A stretch of DNA of 64,000 nucleotides from an uncultured delta proteobacterium (GTDB taxonomy: Bacteria; Desulfobacterota; Desulfobulbia; Desulfobulbales; JAGXFP01): positions 337,763 through 401,762 of the forward strand of contig CAWEAD010000008.1 of the NCBI GenBank assembly GCA_963807225.1, given 5' to 3'. The translations under genes were made by a program, and so were the position numbers. Below the pieces are notes generated by a model that had not been told where the DNA came from, searched no databases, and was given only the letters and a program-made list of their open reading frames with translations. This document shows positions 13,115 to 45,487 of the stretch, piece by piece; positions within the stretch are counted from its first letter, which is position 1; every line of letters starts with the position of its first letter.

Positions 13115-14455
13115 ATGAATTACCAAGAGGCCTGGGATTTTCTCAACGATCTGCAGTTTTTTAAGATCAAGCTGGGGCTCGAGTCCATGGGGGCCTTCCT
13201 GGACAGCCTCGGCAATCCGCAGCAACAGTTGAAGTTCGTCCATGTGGCCGGTACCAACGGTAAAGGTTCGGTCTGCACCAGCCTGTCGGCAATTTTGGGC
13301 CGGTCCGGATACCGGGTCGGGGTTTACACCTCGCCGCATCTCACTTCGGTACGAGAACGGTTCAGGATCAACGATGAGTATATCTCCGAGGAGGAGTTTG
13401 CCGAAGAGGCCACCGCCATCCGGCAGATCCTGGCCGGCCGGCAGATCACCTACTTTGAGTTTACCACCGCCCTGGCTCTGCTCTGGTTTGCCCGGCGCCG
13501 GGTCGATCTGGTTATCCTGGAAGTGGGGTTGGGAGGCAGGTTGGATGCCACCAACGTGGTGACGCCGCTGGTCGGCGTGGTCACCAATGTGGCCATGGAC
13601 CATGAGGCCTACCTGGGCAGCACTCTGGCCGAAATTGCCGCCGAGAAGGCCGGAATCGTCAAGTCCGGAGTTCCCCTGGTCTCGGCCATCGCGCCGGACG
13701 AAGGACGTGAGGTGTTGAGCCGTACCTGCAGTGAAAAAGGGGCACCACTCTACCTTCTGGGTCGGGATTTTCAAGTTACGACCCGGTCGGATGGTTCTTG
13801 GACCTATCGGGGGATTAACCCGGAGATGCTGCTTGACAACTTGCGGACCAATTTACTTGGTGACTACCAGCTGGATAACAGCGCGGTTGCTCTGGCGGTG
13901 AGCGAACTCTTGGGCCGGCAGGGCTTTTCGGTCAACCAGACACTGATCGGACCGGCGTTGAGCCAGGTCCGGTGGCCGGGCCGGTTGGAAAAATTCTGCC
14001 TTTCCGAACCGGGCCGAGAGAAAATCGTCTGTCCTGCCGGGCAGGCGAATTTGCCGGCCACCGGCTTTCGCCGCTATCTGCTGGACGGAGCCCATAATCC
14101 GGCCGGAGTCGAAAGTCTGGCTCGTTTTCTGGAAGATCGGAGAGAATATCGGGATCTGGTCATGGTCTGGTCCAGCATGTCGGACAAAGACTTTACCTCT
14201 TCTCTGGCCAGGATTATCCCGCTATGCCGGAAGATCATCTTCACCCGGCCGGAAGCGGAACGCTCCGCTACCCAGAATCAGTTGCGGGAATGCCTGCCGC
14301 CATCCTTTCGTGACCGGGCGCTGGCGGCCGCCGATATTGCCGAGGCACTGGCACAAGCCCGGCTCTTGACGGACGGACGCGATCTGATCGGTGTGGCCGG
14401 TTCTCTTTATCTGGTCGGGGCGGCTCGCAGGCAGCTCTTGGGAGAGATTGCCTGA
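13115..14455 (+). CDS. folC: bifunctional folylpolyglutamate synthase / dihydrofolate synthase
   Basis: VAGTNGKGS P-loop and Mur-ligase-like layout. ATG 13115 with a GAGGG RBS. Confidence 0.9.
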   Translation: MNYQEAWDFLNDLQFFKIKLGLESMGAFLDSLGNPQQQLKFVHVAGTNGKGSVCTSLSAILGRSGYRVGVYTSPHLTSVRERFRINDEYISEEEFAEEATAIRQILAGRQITYFEFTTALALLWFARRRVDLVILEVGLGGRLDATNVVTPLVGVVTNVAMDHEAYLGSTLAEIAAEKAGIVKSGVPLVSAIAPDEGREVLSRTCSEKGAPLYLLGRDFQVTTRSDGSWTYRGINPEMLLDNLRTNLLGDYQLDNSAVALAVSELLGRQGFSVNQTLIGPALSQVRWPGRLEKFCLSEPGREKIVCPAGQANLPATGFRRYLLDGAHNPAGVESLARFLEDRREYRDLVMVWSSMSDKDFTSSLARIIPLCRKIIFTRPEAERSATQNQLRECLPPSFRDRALAAADIAEALAQARLLTDGRDLIGVAGSLYLVGAARRQLLGEIA

Positions 14456-14763
14456 TGGGCTGGGATGAGGACAACTTCTTTGCCGGGGTCGACGAAGAGA
14501 TCATCAGGCAGGAAAAAGCCAAGGCGCGTGATCTCCGGAAAAGCCGCTGGTGGCAAGGCAAGCTGGCCGAAGGGCGGTGCCATTATTGTGGCCGGGCCAC
14601 GCCCAGGGCGGAATTGACCATGGACCATGTCGTGCCGCTGACCCGTGGGGGACGCAGCGTCAAGAGTAACCTGGTGGCCTGCTGCAAGGAGTGCAATAAC
14701 CGAAAGAAGAACCTGCTGCCGCAGGAGTGGGAAGAGTACCTGGAAAAATGCGGGGCCGGGTAA
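14455..14763 (+). CDS. HNH endonuclease (102 aa)
   Basis: CHYCG...MDHVVPLTRGG...NLVACCKECNNRKKN (HNH/CxxC zinc motif). The ATG overlaps the folC TGA (CTGATGG). Confidence 0.85.
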   Translation: MGWDEDNFFAGVDEEIIRQEKAKARDLRKSRWWQGKLAEGRCHYCGRATPRAELTMDHVVPLTRGGRSVKSNLVACCKECNNRKKNLLPQEWEEYLEKCGAG

Positions 14764-15293: not shown

Positions 15294-16394
15294 TCAGATT
15301 TCATCGCCCAGGCAAATCCCGATTTCCCTGGCGGTAAGGATCTTGTCGCTGTCCATGGGCACCTTTTTGCGCTGCTTGATCGCTTCCGCCAAGGGAATCG
15401 CTTCCATCTCGCCATTGACCAGGGCGACCATCTGATCAAACTGTTCCATTTCGGCCATGCGGACTGCCGCCGCGCCAAAACGCAAGGCCAGCAGGCGATC
15501 GAATGTGGTGGGTGAACCGCCCCTCTGCAAGTGGCCCAGGACCATGGAGCGGGTGTCCTTGCCGGCGCTTTGCCTGATCTGGTTGGCCACCCACTCGCCG
15601 ATTCCCCCCAGCAGCATTTCCTGGCGACCGATTTCCTGCGGGCTGCGGTCCTTCTGGAATACGCAACCTTCCTTGGCACAGGCCCCTTCGGCCACCACGA
15701 CGATGGCGTATTGTTTGCCGTGTAGTTCGTTGTCGGAAATCTTGCGACAGATGGCCTCGATGCTGAAGGGGATTTCCGGCAGCAAAATAACGTCGGCGCC
15801 GCCGGAGATCCCTGAACTAAGAGCGATCCATCCGGAATCTCGGCCCATTACCTCGACCACCATGACCCGGTCATGGGACTTGGCGGTGGAATGGAGTTTG
15901 TCGATGGCTTCGGTGGCGGTAGAGACGGCGGTATCGAAACCGAAGGTCATCTGGGTGGCTTCCAGGTCGTTATCGATGGTTTTGGGCACTCCGATTACCG
16001 GCATGCCTTTCTCGGTGGCGAAGCGATGGGCGATCTCCAGGCTGCCGTCGCCGCCCACGGCGATGTGACAGGAGAATCCCATTCTGGTGAAGTTTTTCAT
16101 CACCCGGTCCGAAACATCGCGGATCTGGTATTCTCCGGCCAGGTTCTCCACCGGCATGGCGAAAGGATTGCCCTTGTTGGTTGAGCCCAAGATTGTCCCG
16201 CCGGTGGGAGTGATGTCCTCGACCTTGTCGGCAGTGAGACGTACCAGTTCGTCCGGGTCCAGCAGGCCCTTATAGCCGGTGCGACTGCCGTATACTTCCC
16301 AATCCCGAAAAAGCGAGGCCTTGACCACCGAATAAATTACCGCGTTCAGGCCCGGGGCGTCACCGCCGCCGGTGGAGATTACGATTCTCTTCAT
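15294..16394 (-). CDS. pfk: 6-phosphofructokinase
   Basis: MKRIVISTGGGDAPGLN, GGDGS, TIDNDL, MGR motifs. Start placed at ATG 16394 rather than the ORF-track 16466. Confidence 0.93.
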   Translation of the reverse strand: MKRIVISTGGGDAPGLNAVIYSVVKASLFRDWEVYGSRTGYKGLLDPDELVRLTADKVEDITPTGGTILGSTNKGNPFAMPVENLAGEYQIRDVSDRVMKNFTRMGFSCHIAVGGDGSLEIAHRFATEKGMPVIGVPKTIDNDLEATQMTFGFDTAVSTATEAIDKLHSTAKSHDRVMVVEVMGRDSGWIALSSGISGGADVILLPEIPFSIEAICRKISDNELHGKQYAIVVVAEGACAKEGCVFQKDRSPQEIGRQEMLLGGIGEWVANQIRQSAGKDTRSMVLGHLQRGGSPTTFDRLLALRFGAAAVRMAEMEQFDQMVALVNGEMEAIPLAEAIKQRKKVPMDSDKILTAREIGICLGDEI

Positions 16395-16532
16395 GAATTT
16401 CCTCGAGTTATAATCTTGCCAGACTTTAGAATACCGATAGTTTATCAAATTTGGCAGAAATAACATGGGGTCTTCTGAAATTCCGTCCTATCCATAATCA
16501 TGAAAGTATTTAAATTATTTCTTAACGGTTGT

Positions 16533-16561
16533 TTGACATTTACCAATTGGAAACATATATG
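16533..16561 (+). promoter_or_regulatory. candidate sigma-70 promoter for the HesB-like gene
   Basis: TTGACA (16533-16538), a 17-nt spacer, then TATATG, in an AT-rich intergenic region. Pattern match only. Confidence 0.3.
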
Positions 16562-16687
16562 ATATATTACTAGTCAATAAGCTTTACTGATTTGAAGCAT
16601 GTCACTGTTAGGATGTAGTGAAGTTGTTTCGTGAAATCAAACCTTTGAAAGGGTTATTTTTTAATCTAACACATGGAGGATTTGGGT

Positions 16688-17020
16688 ATGTTGGAAGTTA
16701 CCGAACAGGCTCTTACAAACCTGAAGGCCTATCTGGAGCAGAACAGTATCAGTTCTGCCCTGCGAGTGGCCTTGATGCAGGGGGGCTGATCTGGTCCCTC
16801 TCTGGGCTTGGCTCTGGATGAGCCAAAAGACAACGATATGAAGGTAGAGGAAGGTGAACTGACTTTCCTGGTAGACAATGATCTGATGAAAAACTGCGGT
16901 GACATCAAGGTGGATTTCATCGATAGCGGTATGCGTTCGGGTTTCACCATCTCTTCCCGGATTCCGGTCAGTGGTGGCGGCGGTTGCGGCAGCAGCTGCG
17001 GATCCGGTAGCTGCGGCTGA
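16688..17020 (+). CDS. HesB/IscA-like Fe-S assembly protein, selenocysteine-containing (UGA at 16787-16789 read as Sec)
   Basis: ATG 16688 after a GGAGGA RBS. Translation MLEVTEQALTNLKAYLEQNSISSALRVALMQGG-U-SGPSLGLALDEPKDNDMKV...GFTISS...GGGGCGSSCGSGSCG. The TGA falls where IscA/HesB has the GCSG cysteine. The frame stays open and family-like to 17020. The ORF track splits this gene into unrelated pieces. Confidence 0.8.
16808..16826 (+). promoter_or_regulatory. SECIS-like hairpin downstream of the UGA
   Basis: TTGGCTC-TGGAT-GAGCCAA: a 7-bp perfect stem with a G/U-containing apical loop, starting 19 nt after the UGA. Confidence 0.5.
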
Positions 17021-17046
17021 TTGTTTACCAAAGCGAAGAATATAAA

Positions 17047-17075
17047 CCTCCGGCTTCGGCCGGGGGTTTTTTTTT
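17047..17075 (+). terminator. rho-independent terminator
   Basis: CCTCCGGC-TTCG-GCCGGGGG stem-loop followed by T9. Confidence 0.85.
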
Positions 17076-17205
17076 ACCTCAATCATAACCCCCTGCTTGC
17101 CTTATCTGCGATCTTGCTTGTGGTTTTCATCTGAGTTCAAGTTAAAATGATCGGGTAAATATCGGTCTGGCCCTCGGAGAAATTTAGTAATAAAGGAATT
17201 TCGAT

Positions 17206-18708
17206 ATGGGTTTGTCGATGCCGGCTAAATGTATCTTTCCGCTCTCCTGCCTGATCTTGGGGATTCTGGCTATCACGCTCCAGGCGGCGCCGGTGGGTGG
17301 TGGACAGATCCGGGAGCCGGCCTGGGCCGGGGCTTTTTACCCGGCGGATTCTTCCGCCCTGGCTGCCGCCATTGATTCCTACCGGGCCAAGGCGGCAAGC
17401 ACGGTTCTCAAACTTCCCCCGGCGCACTTGCGAGCATTGATCATGCCCCATGCCGGTTACCTATACTCCGGTTTGACGGCGGCTCATGCAGCTAGGGTCA
17501 TTTCCCCCGGGGAATTCTCCAAAGTAGTTCTGCTCGGACCGGACCACCGGGTGGGATTCCGTAATGGAGCCATCAGTTCGGCAGCTTTTTATCGCACCCC
17601 CCTGGGACTGGTCCAGCTGCATCCTGACGTAATTGCTTTGTTGCGACAGGAACAGCTTTTCCGATCCGTGCCCGCCTCGGATCGGGTCGAACACTCACTG
17701 GAAGTGGTTTTGCCATTTCTCCAGCGATTTATGGGAAGTTTTAAGTTGGTGCCGGTGGTTCTGGGACCAACCGATCCGGCCGCCATGGCTGCTGCCGTGG
17801 AGCCGCTTTTAGATACCCGGACCTTGCTGGTGGTCAGTAGCGACCTGTCCCATTATCTGCCCTATGAAGAGGCGGTGGTCCGTGACCGACAAACTATCGG
17901 CCAACTGCTGGACCTTGATGCGTCGGGCCTGGTGGCCGATAACAACCGGGCTTGCGGCCGGGAGGCTTTGTTGACCTTGTTGGAGTTGGCAAACCGGCAT
18001 CATTGGCGTCCGGTGTTGCTCCATTATGCCAACAGCGGCGATGCGACCGGTGAGCGAGACCGGGTGGTGGGCTACGCCGCACTTGCTTTCTATGCAGTGG
18101 AGAAGAACATGACTATGGAAAAATCGAATAAAATCGGCGCCGCCCAGGGTCAGCACCTGGTGCAACTGGCAAGGCAGACCATAAGTGAGCGGCTTCGGCA
18201 GCCGGTGGACCGGCTCCAGGCCGAGAATCTGGCTCAGGCTTTGCGAGCCTCGGTATTCCAGGAGAAGCGCGGGGTCTTCGTGACCTTACATAAACATGGC
18301 CAGTTGCGAGGATGCATCGGCAGTCTCAGTGGTTATCGATCAATTGTCGATGGGGTAAGGGAAAACGCGATCAACGCCGCCTTTAACGACTACCGCTTCG
18401 GGCCGGTGACTGCCGAGGAATTGGCCGATCTGGAGATTGAGGTATCCATCCTTACCGAACCACAGCCTCTGCAGTACGACGGGGCTGAACAACTGCTGAC
18501 CAGTTTGCGGCCCGGAATGGATGGAGTCATCATTCACAGGGGAGGGGCATCGGCTACCTTTCTGCCTCAGGTTTGGGAGCAGTTGCCCGAGCCGGCCGAT
18601 TTTCTGAGCCATCTCTGCCGGAAGGCCGGCTTGTCGCCGCAGGATTGGCGTCAGGGCGGCTTGGAGGTCCAGATCTATCAGGTGCAGTATTTTGCCGAGG
18701 AGAAGTGA
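17206..18708 (+). CDS. AmmeMemoRadiSam system protein B (Memo-like) fused to protein A (AMMECR1-like), with an N-terminal signal-like segment
   Basis: 500 aa. The N-terminal half has MPHAGYLYSG (Memo family); the C-terminal half has LRGCIGSL (AMMECR1). First 30 residues: MGLSMPAKCIFPLSCLILGILAITLQAAPV. Confidence 0.85.
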   Translation: MGLSMPAKCIFPLSCLILGILAITLQAAPVGGGQIREPAWAGAFYPADSSALAAAIDSYRAKAASTVLKLPPAHLRALIMPHAGYLYSGLTAAHAARVISPGEFSKVVLLGPDHRVGFRNGAISSAAFYRTPLGLVQLHPDVIALLRQEQLFRSVPASDRVEHSLEVVLPFLQRFMGSFKLVPVVLGPTDPAAMAAAVEPLLDTRTLLVVSSDLSHYLPYEEAVVRDRQTIGQLLDLDASGLVADNNRACGREALLTLLELANRHHWRPVLLHYANSGDATGERDRVVGYAALAFYAVEKNMTMEKSNKIGAAQGQHLVQLARQTISERLRQPVDRLQAENLAQALRASVFQEKRGVFVTLHKHGQLRGCIGSLSGYRSIVDGVRENAINAAFNDYRFGPVTAEELADLEIEVSILTEPQPLQYDGAEQLLTSLRPGMDGVIIHRGGASATFLPQVWEQLPEPADFLSHLCRKAGLSPQDWRQGGLEVQIYQVQYFAEEK

Positions 18709-20782
18709 GCGGGATATCATCCGTTTGCTGGTCGCCACCGGGATCGCTTCGGTGGTGGCCCAACTCCTGCTGATTCGCGAGTTTCTCGCCCTTTTTCGGG
18801 GCAACGAATACGTCATTGCCCTGATCTTGTTCAACTGGCTGATCCTGGGGGGAATCGGCACCCGGCTGGCCCGTTGGGCGACCGGTCGCACCGCCTCCCG
18901 CTCCACCCTGGCCTGGATTTCCCTGATCCTGGCGTTGCTTGGGGTTCTGCAGATTCCGGCGCTTCGGCAGTTGCGCGATCTGGTCTTCATCCATGGTAGT
19001 TCGGTCGGTTTCTATCCCACCTTTCTCTTTGTCCTGGCCGGGATGGCTCCTTATTGTCTGCTGGTCGGCTTTGCCTTGCCTTACAGTCTCTTCGTCCTCC
19101 GTGATGAAACCCCTGGCTATTCAGGGGTCAGGGTCTACATGGCCGACAACCTGGGCGATGTCTGCGGCGGGGCACTGTTTTCCTTTCTCCTGGTCTGGCT
19201 GGTGACTCCCCTGCAGGCCCTGTTCCTGGCCGGCTTGCCGCTGCTGGTCTGTGCCGTGCTGCTTTCCCCTCCCGGATCAAGAAACCGCCGGCTGTGGCTG
19301 GTCAAGGCCGGACTTTTTCTGATTCCGATGAGCGGTGTTTTGGGTCTGGAGCGCGCTTCGCTATTGAGGCCGGCCGGCGAGTTGGTGCATTATCAGGAAT
19401 CGCGCTATGGCCGACTAGAGGTTTATCGGGACCGGGAGCAGTTCACCCTGTTCCGGGACGGTGTACCTGCCGTCAGCGATCAAAATCGCAGTCGGGCCGA
19501 AGAGGCGGTCCATTATCCCCTGATCCAGTTGGATCGGGTTCGACGAGTACTGCTGATCGCTCCGGAAAGCGGGATGCTCCGGGAAGTGGCCAAATATCAC
19601 CCGGAACAGGTGGACTATGTCGAACTGGACCCGGCCATCACCACCCTGCAGTTCCGCTATGGCATGGTCCGCGAGATCCCAGGACTCAACCTGATCCATC
19701 AGGATGCCCGGGCCTGGCTAAGCGCCACTGACAGGACTTATGACGCCATCATCATGAACCTGCCGGAACCGGAAACTTTTCAGGTAAATCGTTTTTTCAC
19801 CACCGGTTTTTTTGCCATTGTCCAACAACATCTGACACCCGGCGGCATCTTTTCCTTCAGTCTGGAGGGTTATGATAACTTTCTCGGGGAAGCGCAAAGG
19901 CACAAGGTTTCCTCAATATTCAATACGGCTTCCCGCTATTTCTCCCACCTTTTATTGTTGCCGGGCGGCAGCATTTATTTTCTTTGCCGGGATCGCCCTC
20001 TGACCGAAGAAATACCGGCCCGCTTGACGGCTCGGGGGATCACTTCCTGGTATGTGGGCAATTACTTCGCCGGGGAGATGAGCCGGGAACGGATTGCCTA
20101 TCTGCGCGGAGAGCTGGAATCGGCGGCACCGGTCAATACCGACCTGAAACCGCAGTTGATGCAGCTCATGTTTTTACAGTGGTTCGCCAAATTTCAGACC
20201 TCACCGCTCTGGTTTTATGGTTTGCTGGGGCTCCTGCTGGCAACCTACCTCTGGCGAGCCAGAAGGGAGGAGATGGTTCTTTTTTCCACCGGCTTCATGG
20301 TCATGGGCAGCGAGATCCTGGTGATCTTCGCTTTTCAGGTATATTATGGCTACATATATACCCAGATCGGCCTGATCGTCACCGTCTTCCTGGCCGGCCT
20401 GCTGCCCGGGGCCTGGTTGGGCGAGCGCCTGGTCTCCCGGCCGGCCCGGGTCATGGTCTGGACCGATCTTTTTTTGGTTTTGTTGCTGGGCCTGTTCTGG
20501 TTGCTGCTGGTGCGGGTGGGAGAGGGAATGACGGTGCAATTCCTGCTTTTCTTCGGCTTTCTGGTCTCCTTGGGTTGCGGGATGCAATTTGCCCCGGCGC
20601 TAAGGATGGGCGGTAGCGACAACCCGGCCGCCACCCGGGTTTTCTCCGCCGACCTGATCGGGGCGGCGGCCGGAGCCCTGCTGACCAGTGTGGTGCTGAT
20701 TCCTTTCCTGGGGATTGCCATGACCACCCTGGCCCTGGCCCTAATCAAAACAACCAGCCTGATCCTGGTGAGTCGCGCATGA
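18692..20782 (+). CDS. polytopic membrane protein with a central spermidine-synthase-like domain (fused MFS-like/spermidine synthase type)
   Basis: 696 aa. Many hydrophobic helices at both ends. Central soluble domain ...YGRLEVYRD...VLLIAPESGMLREV...YVELDP...DAIIMNLPEPETF...GGIFSF. TTG start 17 nt inside the preceding ORF; the true start is uncertain. Confidence 0.8.
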   Translation: MPRRSERDIIRLLVATGIASVVAQLLLIREFLALFRGNEYVIALILFNWLILGGIGTRLARWATGRTASRSTLAWISLILALLGVLQIPALRQLRDLVFIHGSSVGFYPTFLFVLAGMAPYCLLVGFALPYSLFVLRDETPGYSGVRVYMADNLGDVCGGALFSFLLVWLVTPLQALFLAGLPLLVCAVLLSPPGSRNRRLWLVKAGLFLIPMSGVLGLERASLLRPAGELVHYQESRYGRLEVYRDREQFTLFRDGVPAVSDQNRSRAEEAVHYPLIQLDRVRRVLLIAPESGMLREVAKYHPEQVDYVELDPAITTLQFRYGMVREIPGLNLIHQDARAWLSATDRTYDAIIMNLPEPETFQVNRFFTTGFFAIVQQHLTPGGIFSFSLEGYDNFLGEAQRHKVSSIFNTASRYFSHLLLLPGGSIYFLCRDRPLTEEIPARLTARGITSWYVGNYFAGEMSRERIAYLRGELESAAPVNTDLKPQLMQLMFLQWFAKFQTSPLWFYGLLGLLLATYLWRARREEMVLFSTGFMVMGSEILVIFAFQVYYGYIYTQIGLIVTVFLAGLLPGAWLGERLVSRPARVMVWTDLFLVLLLGLFWLLLVRVGEGMTVQFLLFFGFLVSLGCGMQFAPALRMGGSDNPAATRVFSADLIGAAAGALLTSVVLIPFLGIAMTTLALALIKTTSLILVSRA

Positions 20783-21960
20783 AAAAGATTGATCGTCGCC
20801 ATCTGCTCCTGGGCAGCGCCGCCGCGGCCGCAACCTGCGCCTTGTCGGCCGGTGCCTTCTGGCCCCGGACCAGAGGCTGGCAAAGTTCCGGCCCGGCCGA
20901 TATTACCGGCCGGATTTTTCATCACGACGCCCCTGCCCAACCCTGGAAGTGGTCCAAGGAGGCCTTTCTTTACGTTAAACTCGACAACTCCCGGGTCATG
21001 TGCTCGATCTGCCCCAACGCTTGCGTTCTGGCCCCCGGCGACCGCAGTGTCTGCCGTTCCAAGGTCAATATCGATGGGGTGCTTTACAGCCTGGCCTACG
21101 GCAATCCCAGCTCGGTCCATATCGATCCGATCGAGAAAAAACCGTTGTTCCACTATCTCCCCCGGAGCAAGGTCTTTTCCATCGCCACCGCCGGATGCAA
21201 CTTTCGCTGCCTGAACTGCCAGAACTGGGAAATCTCCCAGATGCGGCCGGAGGATCTGCGCAACTATGAGATGTTTCCGGACCAGGTGGTGCAAAATGGG
21301 GTCGAGGCGGATTGTCGGGCCGTTGCCTATACCTACTCCGAAGCGGTAACCTTTTTCGAGTACATGCTCGACACCGCCAGGCTGGCCCGGCAACGGGGCT
21401 TGAAGAACCTGTTGATTTCCAACGGATACATCAACCGGGAGCCGCTGCTCGAACTCTGCAAGGTTCTGGACGCAGCCAACATCAACCTTAAATCCCTGGA
21501 CGACGCGATTTACCGAAAACTTAACGGTGGCCGATTGGAACCGGTTTTGCAAACCTTCAAAACCCTGCACGAGCAAGGGGTGCACTTCGAGATCACCAAC
21601 CTGGTGGTGCCGGGTTATGTAGATGATCCGGAGATGGTCAAGCGGATGTGCAATTGGATCCTGACCAACCTGGGGCCCGATCATCCCTTGCATTTCCTCA
21701 AGTTTTTCCCTAAATACAAGCTGGACCGGTTACCGCCGACCCCGACCTCGACCCTGACTGAGTTCCGACAACTGGCCCTGCGCGAGGGGCTGAGATACGT
21801 ATATGTCGGCAATCTGGCCGACCATGAGGGTAACCATACCTACTGTCATCAATGCGGTAAACTGTTGGTGGAGAGGCAGGGGTATTTTCTGCCGGTCTTT
21901 AATCTCGAGGATGGTCGCTGCAAATTCTGCGGGACCAAGATCCCCGGGGTCTGGAATTGA
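20779..21960 (+). CDS. AmmeMemoRadiSam system radical SAM enzyme with a twin-arginine-type N-terminus
   Basis: 393 aa. CNFRCLNCQNW cluster motif, an upstream CSICPNACVL...CRS cysteine set, and N-terminus MKKIDRRHLLLGSAAAAATCALSAGAFW. The ATG overlaps the preceding TGA. Confidence 0.9.
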   Translation: MKKIDRRHLLLGSAAAAATCALSAGAFWPRTRGWQSSGPADITGRIFHHDAPAQPWKWSKEAFLYVKLDNSRVMCSICPNACVLAPGDRSVCRSKVNIDGVLYSLAYGNPSSVHIDPIEKKPLFHYLPRSKVFSIATAGCNFRCLNCQNWEISQMRPEDLRNYEMFPDQVVQNGVEADCRAVAYTYSEAVTFFEYMLDTARLARQRGLKNLLISNGYINREPLLELCKVLDAANINLKSLDDAIYRKLNGGRLEPVLQTFKTLHEQGVHFEITNLVVPGYVDDPEMVKRMCNWILTNLGPDHPLHFLKFFPKYKLDRLPPTPTSTLTEFRQLALREGLRYVYVGNLADHEGNHTYCHQCGKLLVERQGYFLPVFNLEDGRCKFCGTKIPGVWN

Positions 21961-21995
21961 CTCATGGAACTTTTTTGCCTTTTTCCTGTCTGCCG

Positions 21996-22883
21996 ATGAG
22001 CCAATATCACAATCAAAAAGCCGGCAATGCCCGTTTGCTGAACCTTGCCACCCTGGCCTCGGTCAGTGTGGCGCTACTGTTGATCATGGTCAAGACCACG
22101 GTCTGGCAGCTTACCGATTCCCTGAGTGTCCTGGCCTCATTGGCCGATTCCGTCCTCGATGCCGCCGCGTCCCTGCTCAATCTGGTGGCGGTCCGCTATT
22201 CCCTGCGGGCGGCCGACCGGGACCATCCCTTCGGGCACGGCAAAGCCGAATACCTGGCCGGACTGGGCCAGGCCCTGTTCGTCGGTTGTTCGGCCCTGTT
22301 CGTCATCTACCAGGCGATCCAGCGTTTTTCCGAGCCGCGGCCTTTGTCCGCTGCCAGCACCGGTATCCTGGTGATGAGCTTTGCGATCCTGGTTACCGGG
22401 GCTCTGGTCCTCTTCCAGCGGCGGGTGATCAAGCAGACCGGCTGTGCCGCGATCAAGGCCGATTCCCTGCATTACTCGGCCGATATTTTCACCAACCTGG
22501 GTACCATTCTGGCCCTGGTTCTGGCCTGGCTGGGCTGGCCCGGATTCGATCCGTTCATTGCCATGCTCATCGCCCTTTTCGTCATCTACAGCGCCTGGCA
22601 GATTGCCTATGAAGCAGGCCAGATGCTCATGGATCATCAATTACCGGCCGAAACTGAGGCGGAGATTGCCGGATTGGCCCTGGCCCATCCCAAGGTCCTT
22701 GGCGTGCACGACATTCGAACCCGGCGTTCAGGACAGACCAGGATTATCCAGCTGCATCTGGAACTGGCGGCCGACCTCCTTCTGCACGAGGCCCACCAGG
22801 TGGCCAAGGACGTGGAACTCAAAATCCAGGCTGTAATGCCCGAGGCCGACATCATCATTCATGAGGATCCGGTCAAACCATGA
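21996..22883 (+). CDS. cation diffusion facilitator (CDF) family metal efflux transporter
   Basis: FieF-like: six TM helices, SLADSVLDAAAS and DSLHYSADIFTN motifs, cytoplasmic C-terminal domain. The ORF opens at TTG 21957, overlapping the upstream stop; first ATG at 21996. Confidence 0.9.
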   Translation: MSQYHNQKAGNARLLNLATLASVSVALLLIMVKTTVWQLTDSLSVLASLADSVLDAAASLLNLVAVRYSLRAADRDHPFGHGKAEYLAGLGQALFVGCSALFVIYQAIQRFSEPRPLSAASTGILVMSFAILVTGALVLFQRRVIKQTGCAAIKADSLHYSADIFTNLGTILALVLAWLGWPGFDPFIAMLIALFVIYSAWQIAYEAGQMLMDHQLPAETEAEIAGLALAHPKVLGVHDIRTRRSGQTRIIQLHLELAADLLLHEAHQVAKDVELKIQAVMPEADIIIHEDPVKP

Positions 22884-32279: not shown

Positions 32280-34252
32280 TTACTGGCAGCTGGGGGGTGA
32301 ATTCGGATCCCCCGGAACGGAAACGCGGTTTTCGTCAAAGGTAAAGGCGCCATCTGTAAACGCCCCGGCAAAGAATCTGCCGCAGGAGGTGGCGCCGGTT
32401 TTCATCGTGACATCTCTATAGGCCAGGATGTTGCCCTGCCAGATAGAGTTCGTGTCCACGGTCGCATCGGATCCCGCCTGCCACCAGACGTTGGAAGCCT
32501 TGGCATTGCCGGCCAGGAGTATCGTAGTGCCGGGTCCCGTGCCGATTGTTGAGGCCGACTGGAAGACGAAACTGGCATTGGGGTCGCCCTGGGCGTCGAG
32601 GGTCAGTTCGCCGGAAATCAGGATCGAGGTGATCGACTGGTAAACACCGGGATAGAACAGGTTGACTCCTTCAACGAGGGCTGCGGGCGGGGGTGAGCCT
32701 CCCAGTGTAGTGGGGGCGGCGATCGGGGTCGCACCCGGCATATTCGCCGGAGTGAGGTCGAGGTAGGCGGCCCTCAAGTCATCCGTGATCTTCTGGGCGG
32801 TTACTGTGTCCGGGTAGAGGGGGGTGATTACTGTCCCCGCTGATGATTGGTGCGCCCGCCATTGCAAAGGCCAAAACTGCCGGCGTCAAGAAATGTAATG
32901 GGCACGCCATTACACTCAGCCGTGGGATTCAGCACCACATCGCCATCGATCCGAGTAACAATAGGGACGGTGAGGGTATTGGTCACTCCGGCGGTGGCCG
33001 CCATCCCGAAGGAAGAGGCCAGGCCAAGGTTTACGCTTGGCACCAAAACGGTACCGGGGGTAAAGGTCCAGACATAGTCACTGGCAGCGGCGGCAGCGGC
33101 AGGGGGTCGCCTGCCAGTTGATTGCCGGCCAGATCAGTGGCATCGGTGGTGATCGTGGCGGTATAGGTGACGTTGGCAGTCAGATTGTTGGTCGGGATTA
33201 AAGGTCGCAACGCTGGTCAAAGGGTCATAAGAGACCAATCCTCCCGGTACCGGGAAGCCTGCCCCGGTCACCGTAAAGGTAAGATTGGTGATCGTAGGGG
33301 AGTCCATCTCCTCACTCAAGGTAACGGTGATGTTCTGATTGCGAGGCACATTGGAGGCAAGTATCGTTCGGGTTGGTATTAAGTCACCGTGGGCCGGATC
33401 AGTGTCCGGTAGAATTCCGGTGGTCCAAGTCCAGACGTAATCCGCCAGCATGGTGTTGCCGGCCAGATCCTTGACCGCCGTGATGATAGTTGAGGTATAG
33501 AGGGTATTAGGCAGCAGGTCGGCGTCAGGGTTGAAGGTCGCGGTCTTGCTGGCGACCGCATAGGTAACTACACCTGCCACTGCCACCGCCGGTGCACCGT
33601 GGGTCAAGGTAAAGGCGGGCGGGGTGGTAATGGACAACGGATCCATCGGTTCATTGAAGATTGCGGTAGTGGAGCGGTTAAGGGGCTGATCGATGGCGCC
33701 ACTGGTATTGCCGGTAATACCGTAGACCCCGGTGGCGGTTATCGTGGGCCGGGTAGTATCGACAACCGAAATCGTGGCGGTGCTGAAGGTCCAGACAAAA
33801 TTAGCGGCCAATGCCACGCCGGTCGCATCCTTGGCCGCCGTGGTAACGGTTACGGTATAAACGGTAAGAGGCAGCAGATCGGCGGCCGGCAGGGTCAGCG
33901 TGGCCACATTGCTGGAGGCCACATAGGTAACGGCGCCTCCGGCCACAGCGACGGCCGGGTTGCCATGGGTCAGCTTAAAGCTGGCCGGGGTCAGCGTGGT
34001 CTGATCCATCGCTTTGCTGAAGGCGACGGAAATTATTTTGGTGTTGACCGGTACACTGGTGGCATTGGCCAGAGGCGCCACGGCAGTAACTGTGGGTGCG
34101 GTTGAGGTTGGGTTGGGGTTGGGGTTGGCGGTGCTGACTGGCTGGTCCCACTCACCGCCGCCACCTTCGCTTCCGCATCCCGGCAGTATAATGAATACGC
34201 TCAGGATTAAGGCGAACAGCAGATAAGCTTTCCGTATCTCTAATCTTTTCAT
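32280..34252 (-). pseudogene. lipoprotein with tandem Ig-like (SbsA_Ig-type) domains and a C-terminal DUF3494 ice-binding-like domain, interrupted by about 3 frameshifts
   Basis: Lipobox IILPGC after ATG 34252. Repeated ...TFNPDADLLPNTLYTSTI... Ig-like units. The reading frame breaks near 33190, 33100 and 32850. The DUF3494 region (LGLASSFGMAATAGVTNT... / ...LTLDAQGDPNASFVFQSASTIGTG...) is split over two frames. Confidence 0.7.
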
Positions 34253-44848: not shown

Positions 44849-45487
44849 ATGACCAAACAGCTTGCAAAAATATCGTCCGTTTTTCTCCTGCTGACCATGA
44901 TTGCGGTTCTTTTACTGCCCGGCTGCGGAAAAAAGCAGGAAGAAGAGAAGCCGGTCGTATCCGAGCAGGCGCTCAACGAATATTCCAGCGATAACGTCTT
45001 CATCCAGGTTTACCGGAAGGTCCAGGCTGAGCCGAACAATGTCGACGCCCTATACCATCTGGCCGATCTTTACGACCGCCAGGGTCAATACCAGAAGGCT
45101 GTCGATACCTTTAAAAAGGTGCTCGAACTGGATCCGGAGAGAAACTTTGCCTATTTCAAGCTGGGGACGGCATACAGTCGTCTCAATCAGCCTGAAAAAG
45201 CGGTTGAGGTGCTTAAGGAAGCGGCCCAACATCTGCCGCATAATCCGATTGTCCTGAATAATCTCGGGATTGCCTACGGCAAGTTGGACCGGCTGGACGA
45301 CGAGATCGCCGCTTTCAAGAAAGCCTTGGAAATCCGGCCTCGCTACTCCGCTGCCCGCTTTAACCTGGCGCTGATTTATCTCAAGAAAGGCGACCGGCAG
45401 AGCGCCATGGAGCAGTATGTGGAGTTGAAAAAGTTTGACATAACGATGGCCGAAGAACTGATGAAAAGAATCGGGGCCGATAAATAA
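44849..45487 (+). CDS. TPR-repeat lipoprotein
   Basis: Lipobox LLLPGC. TPR units (ALYHLADLYDRQGQYQKAVDTFKKVLELDP...). Confidence 0.8.
   Translation: MTKQLAKISSVFLLLTMIAVLLLPGCGKKQEEEKPVVSEQALNEYSSDNVFIQVYRKVQAEPNNVDALYHLADLYDRQGQYQKAVDTFKKVLELDPERNFAYFKLGTAYSRLNQPEKAVEVLKEAAQHLPHNPIVLNNLGIAYGKLDRLDDEIAAFKKALEIRPRYSAARFNLALIYLKKGDRQSAMEQYVELKKFDITMAEELMKRIGADK

What the first reader, a model, noticed from the sequence alone, without database searches (positions are those of the whole stretch)
16688..17020. HesB/IscA-like selenoprotein: in-frame UGA at the cluster-ligand cysteine position with a SECIS-like hairpin
Seen: from ATG 16688 (GGAGGA RBS) the frame reads MLEVTEQ...RVALMQGG-TGA-SGPSLGLALDEPKDNDMKV...GFTISS...CGSSCGSGSCG*. 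The TGA (16787-16789) sits where IscA/HesB proteins have the Cys of the G-C-S-G motif, and the frame remains open and family-like for 77 more codons. A 7-bp hairpin (TTGGCTC-TGGAT-GAGCCAA, 16808-16826) lies a few tens of nt downstream, and a strong terminator follows the gene. Established: a HesB-like selenoprotein family with Sec replacing this Cys has been described. The ORF track and naive gene callers would miss or truncate the gene.
Basis: partly seen in the sequence, partly recalled or inferred. Interest (0 to 1): 0.55.

Follow-up and report, generated by a model that had tools for sequence, protein, structure and literature searches.

The report
Known HesB/IscA-type selenoprotein gene with SECIS
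This is a genuine but already-described selenoprotein gene: a small iron-sulfur-cluster carrier (HesB/IscA family) from a sulfate-reducer-type bacterium, in which a UGA codon followed by a conserved RNA hairpin puts selenocysteine at the first cluster-binding cysteine position.

Summary
The ORF 16688-17020 has an in-frame TGA at 16787-16789, a hairpin at 16808-16826 and a terminator at 17044-17069. With the TGA read as Cys/Sec, the 110-aa product passes Pfam PF01521 and the curated NCBIfam model NF038090 "IscA_HesB_Se" (142.6 bits, cut-off 85). The TGA aligns with Cys35 of E. coli IscA. All 80 related Desulfobulbales-type genome loci fetched carry TGA at this codon, and other homologs carry TGC/TGT, so this is a true Sec/Cys pair. 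The hairpin meets all four published bacterial SECIS criteria: 5-nt loop UGGAU with G at position 2, 6-7 bp stem, 25-nt spacing, and -10 to -11 kcal/mol. Its synonymous sites are frozen in 79 of 79 distinct TGA forms, while flanking synonymous sites vary freely. The stem is intact in only 2 of 13 Cys forms. TGA is otherwise the commonest ordinary stop in the window (15 of 26 genes). The deltaproteobacterial "HesB-like" selenoproteins published in 2006 (D. vulgaris, Syntrophobacter, Syntrophus) pass the same NF038090 model. No Sec-decoding genes lie in the window, so that check remains open. Low interest.

The parts
16539..16568 (+). sigma-70-like promoter candidate (TTTACC-18-TATATT with TG) about 120 nt upstream of the start; weak evidence only
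   Evidence: 9 of 12 consensus match; 2 such sites found against 1.4 expected in shuffles, so not significant on its own
16675..16680 (+). Shine-Dalgarno GGAGGA, 7 nt before the ATG
   Evidence: read directly from the sequence
16688..17020 (+). selenoprotein CDS: 110 aa (Sec at residue 34) plus stop TGA at 17018-17020; IscA/HesB-family A-type carrier-like protein
   Evidence: (NF038090 142.6 bits, cut-off 85); the N-terminus M-[LF]-E-V-T is shared by homologs
16787..16789 (+). in-frame UGA = selenocysteine codon (residue 34), aligned to Cys35 of E. coli IscA
   Evidence: alignment to 1s98; TGA in all 80 related genome loci and in L081/L082; TGC/TGT in 13 Cys homologs
16808..16826 (+). bacterial SECIS hairpin inside the coding sequence (codons L-A-L-D-E-P-K): conserved 6-bp stem 16809-16814/16820-16825, optional outer pair 16808/16826, apical loop UGGAU 16815-16819 with invariant G at 16816 and 16817
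   Evidence: 100% of cells paired in the 6-bp stem; only G-C to G-U and U-A to U-G changes; synonymous sites frozen in TGA forms; stem intact 79/79 against 2/13 in Cys forms; bSECIS criteria met
17044..17076 (+). intrinsic terminator (11-bp stem, GC-rich, loop TTCG, then a T-run) 24 nt after the stop codon
   Evidence: sequence

Best explanation
Window 16688-17020 encodes a 110-residue selenoprotein of the IscA/HesB (A-type iron-sulfur carrier) family, NCBIfam subfamily NF038090. During translation the UGA at 16787-16789 is recoded to selenocysteine. The hairpin 16808-26 lies 25 nt downstream within the coding sequence and carries an apical loop U-G-G-A-U. It acts as the bacterial SECIS that recruits SelB.GTP.Sec-tRNA(Sec) to the ribosome (inferred from the general bacterial mechanism). 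Sec34 occupies the position of the first of the three cluster/iron-ligand cysteines of IscA (Cys35). Together with the Gly/Cys-rich C-terminal tail (C100, C104, C109) it most likely ligates or transfers an Fe-S cluster or iron (inferred from family membership, not shown). The second TGA at 17018-20 has no such hairpin after it, is followed by an intrinsic terminator, and is the true stop. Shown here: family membership, the Sec/Cys pair, conservation of the TGA, and nucleotide-level constraint on the hairpin specific to TGA forms. Inferred: actual Sec insertion, SelB binding, and the biochemical role.
For: Family: PF01521 above its gathering score; NF038090 142.6 bits against cut-off 85; PDB hits to Aq_1857/IscA/HI1723 with the TGA aligned to IscA Cys35. 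Sec/Cys pair: all 80 genome loci plus 2 metagenome contigs carry TGA at the homologous codon. D. oligotrophicus and 12 other homologs carry TGC/TGT. Of the 120 best protein hits, 72 show 'W' (TGA called under code 4) and 42 show C. Downstream conservation: 18 invariant columns, most of them after the TGA. SECIS: in 82 TGA sequences, codons +8 GCT, +9 CTG and +11 GAG are 100% one codon, while flanking 4/6-fold codons carry 1.4-2.0 bits of entropy. The stem is 100% paired, with only wobble-preserving changes. The 6-bp stem is intact in 79/79 TGA forms against 2/13 Cys forms, Fisher p = 1.5e-12, and mean MFE is -10.5 against -4.9 kcal/mol. The loop G at position 2 is a synonymous third-codon position and is invariant in TGA forms. 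All four bSECIS constraints from PMC13188914 are met. TGA is otherwise a normal stop in this genome (15 of 26 supported genes). Precedent: published HesB-like selenoproteins of D. vulgaris, S. fumaroxidans and S. aciditrophicus share the GG-U-SGP motif, pass the same NF038090 model and are 39-41% identical. Desulfotalea (order Desulfobulbales) is a documented Sec user.
Against: No selA, selB, selD or tRNA-Sec lies in the 64-kb window, so the Sec-decoding trait of this particular genome is unverified. The hairpin shows no double compensatory substitutions, because the stem is nearly invariant, so classical covariation support is absent. Folding energy is not significant against shuffles. Rfam has no matching model. 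The Fisher tests treat related sequences as independent. The canonical C-x-C of IscA (C99/C101) is only half conserved: Gly98 aligns to C99. The ligand set, and hence the Fe-S role, is therefore an inference.
Confidence: 0.93

Rival explanations
1. Pseudogene or sequencing error: a nonsense mutation (TGC/TGT to TGA) inactivated an ordinary Cys-containing IscA/HesB gene.
For: An in-frame stop at codon 34; no Sec machinery seen in the window.
Against: The same TGA is present in all 80 related species-level genomes and in independent metagenome contigs. The protein sequence after the TGA is highly conserved. A TGA-form-specific hairpin is maintained at synonymous sites.
Confidence: 0.01
2. UGA is read through without selenocysteine: as Trp (genetic code 4, as many metagenome gene calls assumed), or by near-cognate Cys/Trp tRNA stimulated by the hairpin.
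For: 72 of the 120 best database homologs are deposited with W at this column. Sequence alone cannot tell which amino acid is inserted.
Against: Those W calls also read through the terminal TGA into unconserved tails, so they are calling artefacts. TGA ends 15 of 26 well-supported genes in the window. Homologs without TGA have Cys, never Trp. The hairpin fits the SelB-type SECIS consensus. Published family members are accepted selenoproteins.
Confidence: 0.03
3. The conserved hairpin is not a SECIS: its conservation reflects the invariant LALDEPK peptide plus codon bias, or another RNA function such as stability or pausing.
For: The hairpin overlies the most conserved peptide of the family. 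There is no compensatory covariation and no Rfam hit.
Against: Cys-containing homologs keep the same LALDE peptide but use varied codons (Ala GCT 5/13, Leu CTG 6/13, Glu GAG 6/11) and lose the stem in 11 of 13. In the TGA forms the neighbouring Gly/Pro/Ser/Leu codons are saturated at third positions, so codon bias cannot explain the freezing. Geometry and the loop G match the bSECIS model.
Confidence: 0.03
4. Only the downstream fragment is a gene: a 70-aa protein starting at TTG 16808, as an ORF finder lists it.
For: ORF 16808-17020 appears in the mechanical ORF list. A 72-aa homolog call exists (P0078).
Against: There is no RBS before 16808. The 33 codons upstream of the TGA are conserved as protein in all homologs and belong to the same Pfam/NCBIfam domain (profile positions 1-101 matched by residues 1-102). 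A strong RBS precedes ATG 16688.
Confidence: 0.01

Closest known systems
Deltaproteobacterial 'HesB-like' selenoproteins (Desulfovibrio vulgaris, Syntrophobacter fumaroxidans, Syntrophus aciditrophicus; Zhang et al. 2006, PMC1794560, Additional file 4) = NCBIfam NF038090 IscA_HesB_Se
   Same: Same curated model passed (142.6 bits here; 113.9, 114.1 and 106.8 for the published proteins). Same GG-U-SGP motif with Sec at the IscA-Cys35 position, same ~105-110 aa length, same Gly/Cys-rich C-terminal tail; 39-41% identity over the full length.
   Different: This is a distinct Desulfobulbales orthologue group. It has an extra clade-invariant Cys70 that the published proteins lack and a C-x3-C-x4-C-G tail. 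It sits divergently next to a phosphofructokinase gene in 69 of 83 loci.
TIGR01911 HesB_rel_seleno (the model cited for 'HesB-like protein', motif UxGP, in the 2026 review PMC13188914)
   Same: Same superfamily, same UxGP motif (U-S-G-P here), Sec at the same column.
   Different: The score of 40.8 bits is below the 66.35 cut-off, so it is not a member of this narrower model. None of the seven published bacterial HesB-like selenoproteins tested reached that cut-off either.
Canonical A-type Fe-S carriers IscA / SufA / ErpA (E. coli IscA, PDB 1s98/1r94; Aquifex Aq_1857, 1nwb)
   Same: Same Pfam domain PF01521. The full-length alignment places position 34 on IscA Cys35 and C100 on IscA Cys101.
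   Different: Sec replaces the first ligand Cys. The C99 equivalent is Gly, with alternative cysteines (C104, C109) in a glycine-rich tail. Scores are far below the IscA/SufA/ErpA equivalog cut-offs.
Bacterial SECIS consensus (bSECISearch model; Zhang & Gladyshev 2005 as summarised in PMC13188914)
   Same: A stem-loop inside the coding region just 3' of the UGA, with a small apical loop carrying G then G/U at its start, spacing within 16-37 nt, and MFE below -7.5 kcal/mol.
   Different: It is a short, simple hairpin with no obvious lower stem or bulge. The sequence is family-specific and has no Rfam model.

Membership tests
NCBIfam NF038090 IscA_HesB_Se (IscA/HesB family protein, selenoprotein-containing subfamily) | Whole-protein HMM score at or above the curated cut-off (85 bits), full-length match | tested here: met
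   142.6 bits, residues 1-102 on profile 1-101/101 (with TGA replaced by Cys)
NCBIfam NF038090 IscA_HesB_Se (IscA/HesB family protein, selenoprotein-containing subfamily) | Sec or Cys at the G-G-[U/C]-[SA]-G-P motif, with both forms present in the family | tested here: met
   TGA in 83 loci and TGC/TGT in 13 at the same column. Published U-forms from D. vulgaris and others pass the same model.
TIGR01911 HesB_rel_seleno (classic 'HesB-like selenoprotein' model) | HMM score at or above the curated cut-off (66.35 bits) | tested here: not met
   40.8 bits. Related, but not a member of this narrower model.
Pfam PF01521 Fe-S_biosyn / A-type carrier superfamily | Domain score above the gathering threshold | tested here: met
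   32.7 bits against 26.3; PDB homologs 1nwb, 1s98, 2apn and 1r94 with E = 4e-9 to 3e-6
Pfam PF01521 Fe-S_biosyn / A-type carrier superfamily | Three conserved ligand cysteines (E. coli IscA C35, C99, C101; from established knowledge of the family) | tested here: inconclusive
   U34 aligns to C35 and C100 aligns to C101, but G98 aligns to C99. Invariant C104 and C109 in the tail could substitute.
Pfam PF01521 Fe-S_biosyn / A-type carrier superfamily | Binds or transfers an Fe-S cluster or iron | not testable with these tools
   Needs purified protein and spectroscopy.
Bacterial selenoprotein gene (Sec-UGA + bSECIS) | In-frame UGA conserved among orthologs, with Cys in other homologs and conserved sequence on both sides | tested here: met
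Bacterial selenoprotein gene (Sec-UGA + bSECIS) | bSECIS model: 3-9 nt apical loop, 4-16 bp upper stem, G in the first two loop positions, 16-37 nt from UGA to loop, MFE <= -7.5 kcal/mol (PMC13188914, Fig. 2 legend) | tested here: met
   Loop UGGAU (5 nt, G at positions 2 and 3), stem 6-7 bp, spacing 25 nt, MFE -10.2 to -11.1 kcal/mol. The stem is intact in 79/79 TGA forms.
Bacterial selenoprotein gene (Sec-UGA + bSECIS) | Genome encodes SelA, SelB, SelD and tRNA-Sec | not testable with these tools
   None were found in the 64-kb window and the rest of the genome is not available. The order Desulfobulbales includes documented Sec users (Desulfotalea).
Bacterial selenoprotein gene (Sec-UGA + bSECIS) | Selenium actually incorporated at the UGA | not testable with these tools
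   Needs 75Se labelling or mass spectrometry.

The most novel reading that the evidence does not exclude
In this Desulfobulbales clade the protein may not be a plain Fe-S carrier. Sec34 together with the clade-specific invariant Cys70 (absent from the published HesB-like selenoproteins and from IscA) could form a selenenylsulfide redox couple, or a Se-ligated cluster with distinct chemistry. The near-fixation of Sec (80 of 80 related genomes) and the conserved divergent pairing with phosphofructokinase would then point to an essential redox or sensing role not yet assigned to any A-type carrier.
Probability: 0.12. Interest if true: 0.5.

Novelty: already known. Interest (0 to 1): 0.2.

Why it matters
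For annotation, the gene should be called as one 110-aa selenoprotein (with a translation exception at 16787-16789), not as a 70-aa fragment or a Trp-containing read-through product. Scientifically it adds little. HesB-like selenoproteins have been catalogued in Deltaproteobacteria since 2004-2006, and NCBI maintains a model (NF038090) that this protein passes. There are three modest additions. Sec appears essentially fixed at this position across Desulfobulbales-type genomes. The SECIS is embedded in the family's most conserved peptide, with clean TGA-form-specific synonymous freezing, which makes it a tidy textbook example. Large metagenomic protein catalogues systematically mis-translate this gene.

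Tried and rejected
(1) Rfam at gathering score over the whole window and at E<=10 over 16650-17100: no SECIS-type hit, only weak chance hits on the terminator. (2) Covariation analysis of the hairpin: uninformative because the stem is nearly invariant, with 0 double changes and shuffles equal to the observed value. I replaced it with synonymous-site entropy and a Sec-versus-Cys contrast. (3) Single-sequence folding significance: z only -1.1 to -1.4, so not used as evidence. A second predicted 5' hairpin enclosing the UGA is only partly supported across homologs and was not adopted. (4) Search for selA/selB/selD/tRNA-Sec in the window through ARAGORN, Rfam, and NCBIfam/Pfam scans of about 46 ORFs: none found. 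(5) Mechanical scan for other ORF pairs joined by one in-frame TGA: the list consists of normal gene ends and chance same-frame neighbours, no candidate stood out, and none was followed up. (6) Exact-match lookup of the window's riboflavin synthase to find the source record: not on record, so the organism is known only as a relative of the MAG DeMMO2_17 / Desulfobulbales. (7) Submitting the sequence with 'U' to the HMM tool was rejected, so Cys was substituted. (8) Structure prediction was considered and skipped, because sequence-level family evidence was already decisive and the tool returns no coordinates for ligand geometry.

Full report
OBSERVATION. GGAGGA (16675-16680) lies 7 nt before ATG 16688. 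The frame reads MLEVTEQALTNLKAYLEQNSISSALRVALMQGG-TGA(16787-16789)-SGPSLGLALDEPKDNDMKV...GGGGCGSSCGSGSCG and ends at TGA 17018-17020. The inverted repeat TTGGCTC/TGGAT/GAGCCAA occupies 16808-16826. An 11-bp GC-rich stem plus T-run (17044-17076) follows the gene. A mechanical ORF list shows only a 70-aa fragment from TTG 16808 in this frame. As a single sequence the hairpin is not statistically special (z = -1.1 to -1.4 against dinucleotide shuffles), so the case has to rest on comparative evidence.

FAMILY. With the TGA replaced by Cys, the 110-aa product passes Pfam PF01521 Fe-S_biosyn (32.7 bits, cut-off 26.3). It also passes, full length, the curated NCBIfam subfamily NF038090 'IscA_HesB_Se' (142.6 bits, cut-off 85). 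It does not pass TIGR01911 'HesB_rel_seleno' (40.8 bits against 66.35) or any IscA/SufA/ErpA equivalog model. A sequence search of the PDB finds Aquifex Aq_1857, E. coli IscA (YfhF) and HI1723. In the IscA alignment the TGA codon falls on Cys35 (SGCSG) and C100 falls on Cys101, whereas Cys99 aligns to Gly98.

SEC/CYS PAIR AND CONSERVATION OF THE TGA. A protein search returned 534 homologs. In the alignment many metagenomic entries show 'W' at the TGA column and again immediately after the C-terminal ...GCG, continuing into unconserved tails. This is the signature of gene calls made under code 4, meaning the DNA has TGA at both places. Of the 120 best hits, 72 have W and 42 have C. A scan of one genome per species (GTDB) returned 80 loci, essentially all Desulfobulbales, Desulfurivibrionaceae, Desulfocapsaceae-type bacteria or MAGs labelled Deltaproteobacteria/Thermodesulfobacteriota. 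The search pattern that could match these loci did not include the Sec column, so the set is not biased towards TGA. All 80 loci carry TGA at the homologous codon. Two of them were missed only by my first regular expression and are visible in the alignment. True Cys forms exist as well: Desulfobulbus oligotrophicus has TGC, six loci have an adjacent Cys paralog, and six more Cys homologs were retrieved. Protein conservation is strong on both sides of the TGA, with 18 invariant columns, most of them downstream. TGA is the commonest ordinary stop codon among 26 family-supported genes in the window (15 TGA, 7 TAA, 4 TAG), which excludes a TGA-sense genetic code. A pseudogene, a sequencing error and a code-4 reading are therefore all excluded.

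THE HAIRPIN AS SECIS. In 82 TGA-containing sequences, the codons forming the hairpin are frozen at synonymous sites: Ala +8 is GCT in 82/82, Leu +9 is CTG in 82/82, Glu +11 is GAG in 82/82, and Pro +12 is CCA in 70/72. The 4- and 6-fold degenerate codons just upstream (Ser, Gly, Pro, Ser, Leu, Gly at +1 to +6) and downstream carry 1.4-2.0 bits of codon entropy. That is an internal control that does not depend on phylogeny. RNAalifold recovers a 6-bp stem (window 16809-16814 / 16820-16825) with a UGGAY loop. Every cell is paired, and the only substitutions keep pairing (G-C to G-U in 10 sequences, which costs a Pro-to-Ser change, and U-A to U-G in 2). There are no double compensatory changes, so classical covariation is silent. 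The decisive contrast is with 13 Cys-codon homologs that encode the same L-A-L-D-E peptide. Among them the 6-bp stem is intact in 2/13, against 79/79 distinct TGA forms (Fisher p = 1.5e-12). Mean 30-nt MFE is -4.9 against -10.5 kcal/mol. Codon use is relaxed: GCT 5/13, CTG 6/13, GAG 6/11. The G at loop position 2 is the third base of the Leu codon and is invariant only in TGA forms. These p-values ignore shared ancestry and should be read as descriptive. The published bacterial SECIS model requires a 3-9 nt loop, a 4-16 bp upper stem, a G in the first two loop positions (usually followed by G or U), 16-37 nt between the UGA and the loop, and MFE <= -7.5 kcal/mol (PMC13188914). The window has a 5-nt loop UGGAU, a 6-7 bp stem, 25-nt spacing, and -10.2 to -11.1 kcal/mol. 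All four constraints are met. Rfam has no model that matches.

RELATION TO WHAT IS KNOWN. 'HesB-like' is a catalogued prokaryotic selenoprotein family: 11 bacterial members in Zhang et al. 2006 (PMC1794560), and listed with motif UxGP in the 2026 review (PMC13188914). The 2006 supplementary sequences fall into a GFG-U-GGP type and a GG-U-SGP type with a Gly/Cys-rich tail. The latter type (Desulfovibrio vulgaris, Syntrophobacter fumaroxidans, Syntrophus aciditrophicus) passes NF038090 at 107-114 bits. None of the seven published proteins tested reaches the TIGR01911 cut-off. The window protein is 39-41% identical to these three over its full length and shares the GG-U-SGP motif. It is thus an orthologue-group-level new instance of a family that is already described and already has a curated annotation model. 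The identifier NF038090 itself does not occur in the searchable literature. One clade-specific feature is an invariant Cys70 that the published members and IscA lack.

CONTEXT. The gene is monocistronic, with its own promoter-like site (weak evidence), RBS and terminator. It lies divergent from a phosphofructokinase gene (15294-16466, minus strand), an arrangement conserved in 69 of 83 loci and also in the Cys-form D. oligotrophicus. Downstream is an AmmeMemoRadiSam cluster, shared with only about 10 loci. No selA, selB, selD or tRNA-Sec was found in the window, and the exact-match index does not contain the source genome. The closest genome locus is the MAG DeMMO2_17 (85% identity for this protein, 91% for PFK). 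Desulfotalea psychrophila, a member of the same order, is a documented Sec user with 12 selenoproteins.

MECHANISM (what is shown and what is inferred). Shown: the UGA and the hairpin co-occur and are co-conserved, the hairpin decays when the codon becomes Cys, and the protein is an IscA/HesB-family member with the recoded residue at the first ligand position. Inferred from the established bacterial Sec pathway: SelB bound to Sec-tRNA(Sec) recognises the apical loop (G16816/G16817) as the ribosome approaches the UGA 25 nt upstream and delivers Sec. The terminal TGA lacks such a structure and terminates. Inferred from family: Sec34, with C100 and further tail cysteines, ligates or hands over an Fe-S cluster or iron. 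Selenolate is a stronger nucleophile with a lower pKa than thiolate and could speed up cluster transfer. No experiment on any HesB-like selenoprotein's function turned up in the papers read, and the 2026 review treats the function as unknown.

VERDICT. This is a correct identification of a known selenoprotein family, so novelty is 'already known' and interest is low (0.2). The residual open item is confirmation of the Sec machinery in the rest of the genome. The most novel reading still allowed is a clade-specific Sec34-Cys70 redox function (probability about 0.12).

Noticed in passing
database homologs P0001-P0120 (e.g. P0001, P0005, P0009, P0017, P0105); loci L081:694, L082:352: 72 of the 120 best protein-database homologs are metagenome gene calls that translate TGA as Trp (code 4). 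They show W at the Sec column and read through the terminal TGA into junk tails of up to 193 aa, so this selenoprotein is systematically mis-translated in public protein catalogues.
   Followed up: partly
L044:3798, L045:2676, L055:3100, L061:1434, L065:2510, L076:3564: Six related genomes carry a Cys-containing paralog 0.4-0.7 kb from the Sec gene (a tandem Sec/Cys pair, possibly a selenium-independent backup). The window has no such paralog.
   Followed up: partly
L076:3564-3610 and L088:406-450: Two Cys-codon homologs still have a fully paired hairpin at the SECIS position. It may be a fossil SECIS after a Sec-to-Cys conversion, as proposed for D. hafniense HesB-like in PMC1794560, or a pre-adapted structure.
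   Followed up: no
window 16895-16897 (residue Cys70): A cysteine is invariant in the Desulfobulbales clade of this family but absent from the published HesB-like selenoproteins and from IscA/Aq_1857. It is a possible partner for Sec34.
   Followed up: partly
window 15294-16466 (-): A phosphofructokinase gene lies divergently adjacent to the selenoprotein gene. This arrangement is conserved in 69 of 83 related loci, including a Cys-form species, with no obvious functional link.
   Followed up: partly
window 14455-14763 (+): A 102-aa HNH-only ORF lies immediately after folC, with weak similarity to the HNH domains of Cas9d/IscB (56 bits, far below their cut-offs). It is conserved next to folC in 19 related loci.
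   Followed up: partly
window 17206-21960 (+): An AmmeMemoRadiSam cluster has the B and A proteins fused into one 500-aa ORF, and a 696-aa membrane SpeE-like (polyamine aminopropyltransferase-like) gene inserted before the radical SAM enzyme, with overlapping starts and stops.
   Followed up: no
window 16780-16800: In the window sequence a second predicted hairpin (GGGGGGCU-GAUCU-GGUCCCUC) encloses the UGA itself. Across homologs it is only partly maintained (Gly GGN / Pro CCN codons), so it was not adopted as a functional element.
   Followed up: partly
window 44849-45487 (+), 21957-22883 (+), 32280-32867 (-): There is a TPR protein with a sub-threshold MamA match (91 bits against 200), a FieF-type CDF transporter with secondary MamB/MamM matches, and an ice-binding-like domain protein next to a Big_5 protein and an OmpA-like barrel. 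None relates to the finding.
   Followed up: no
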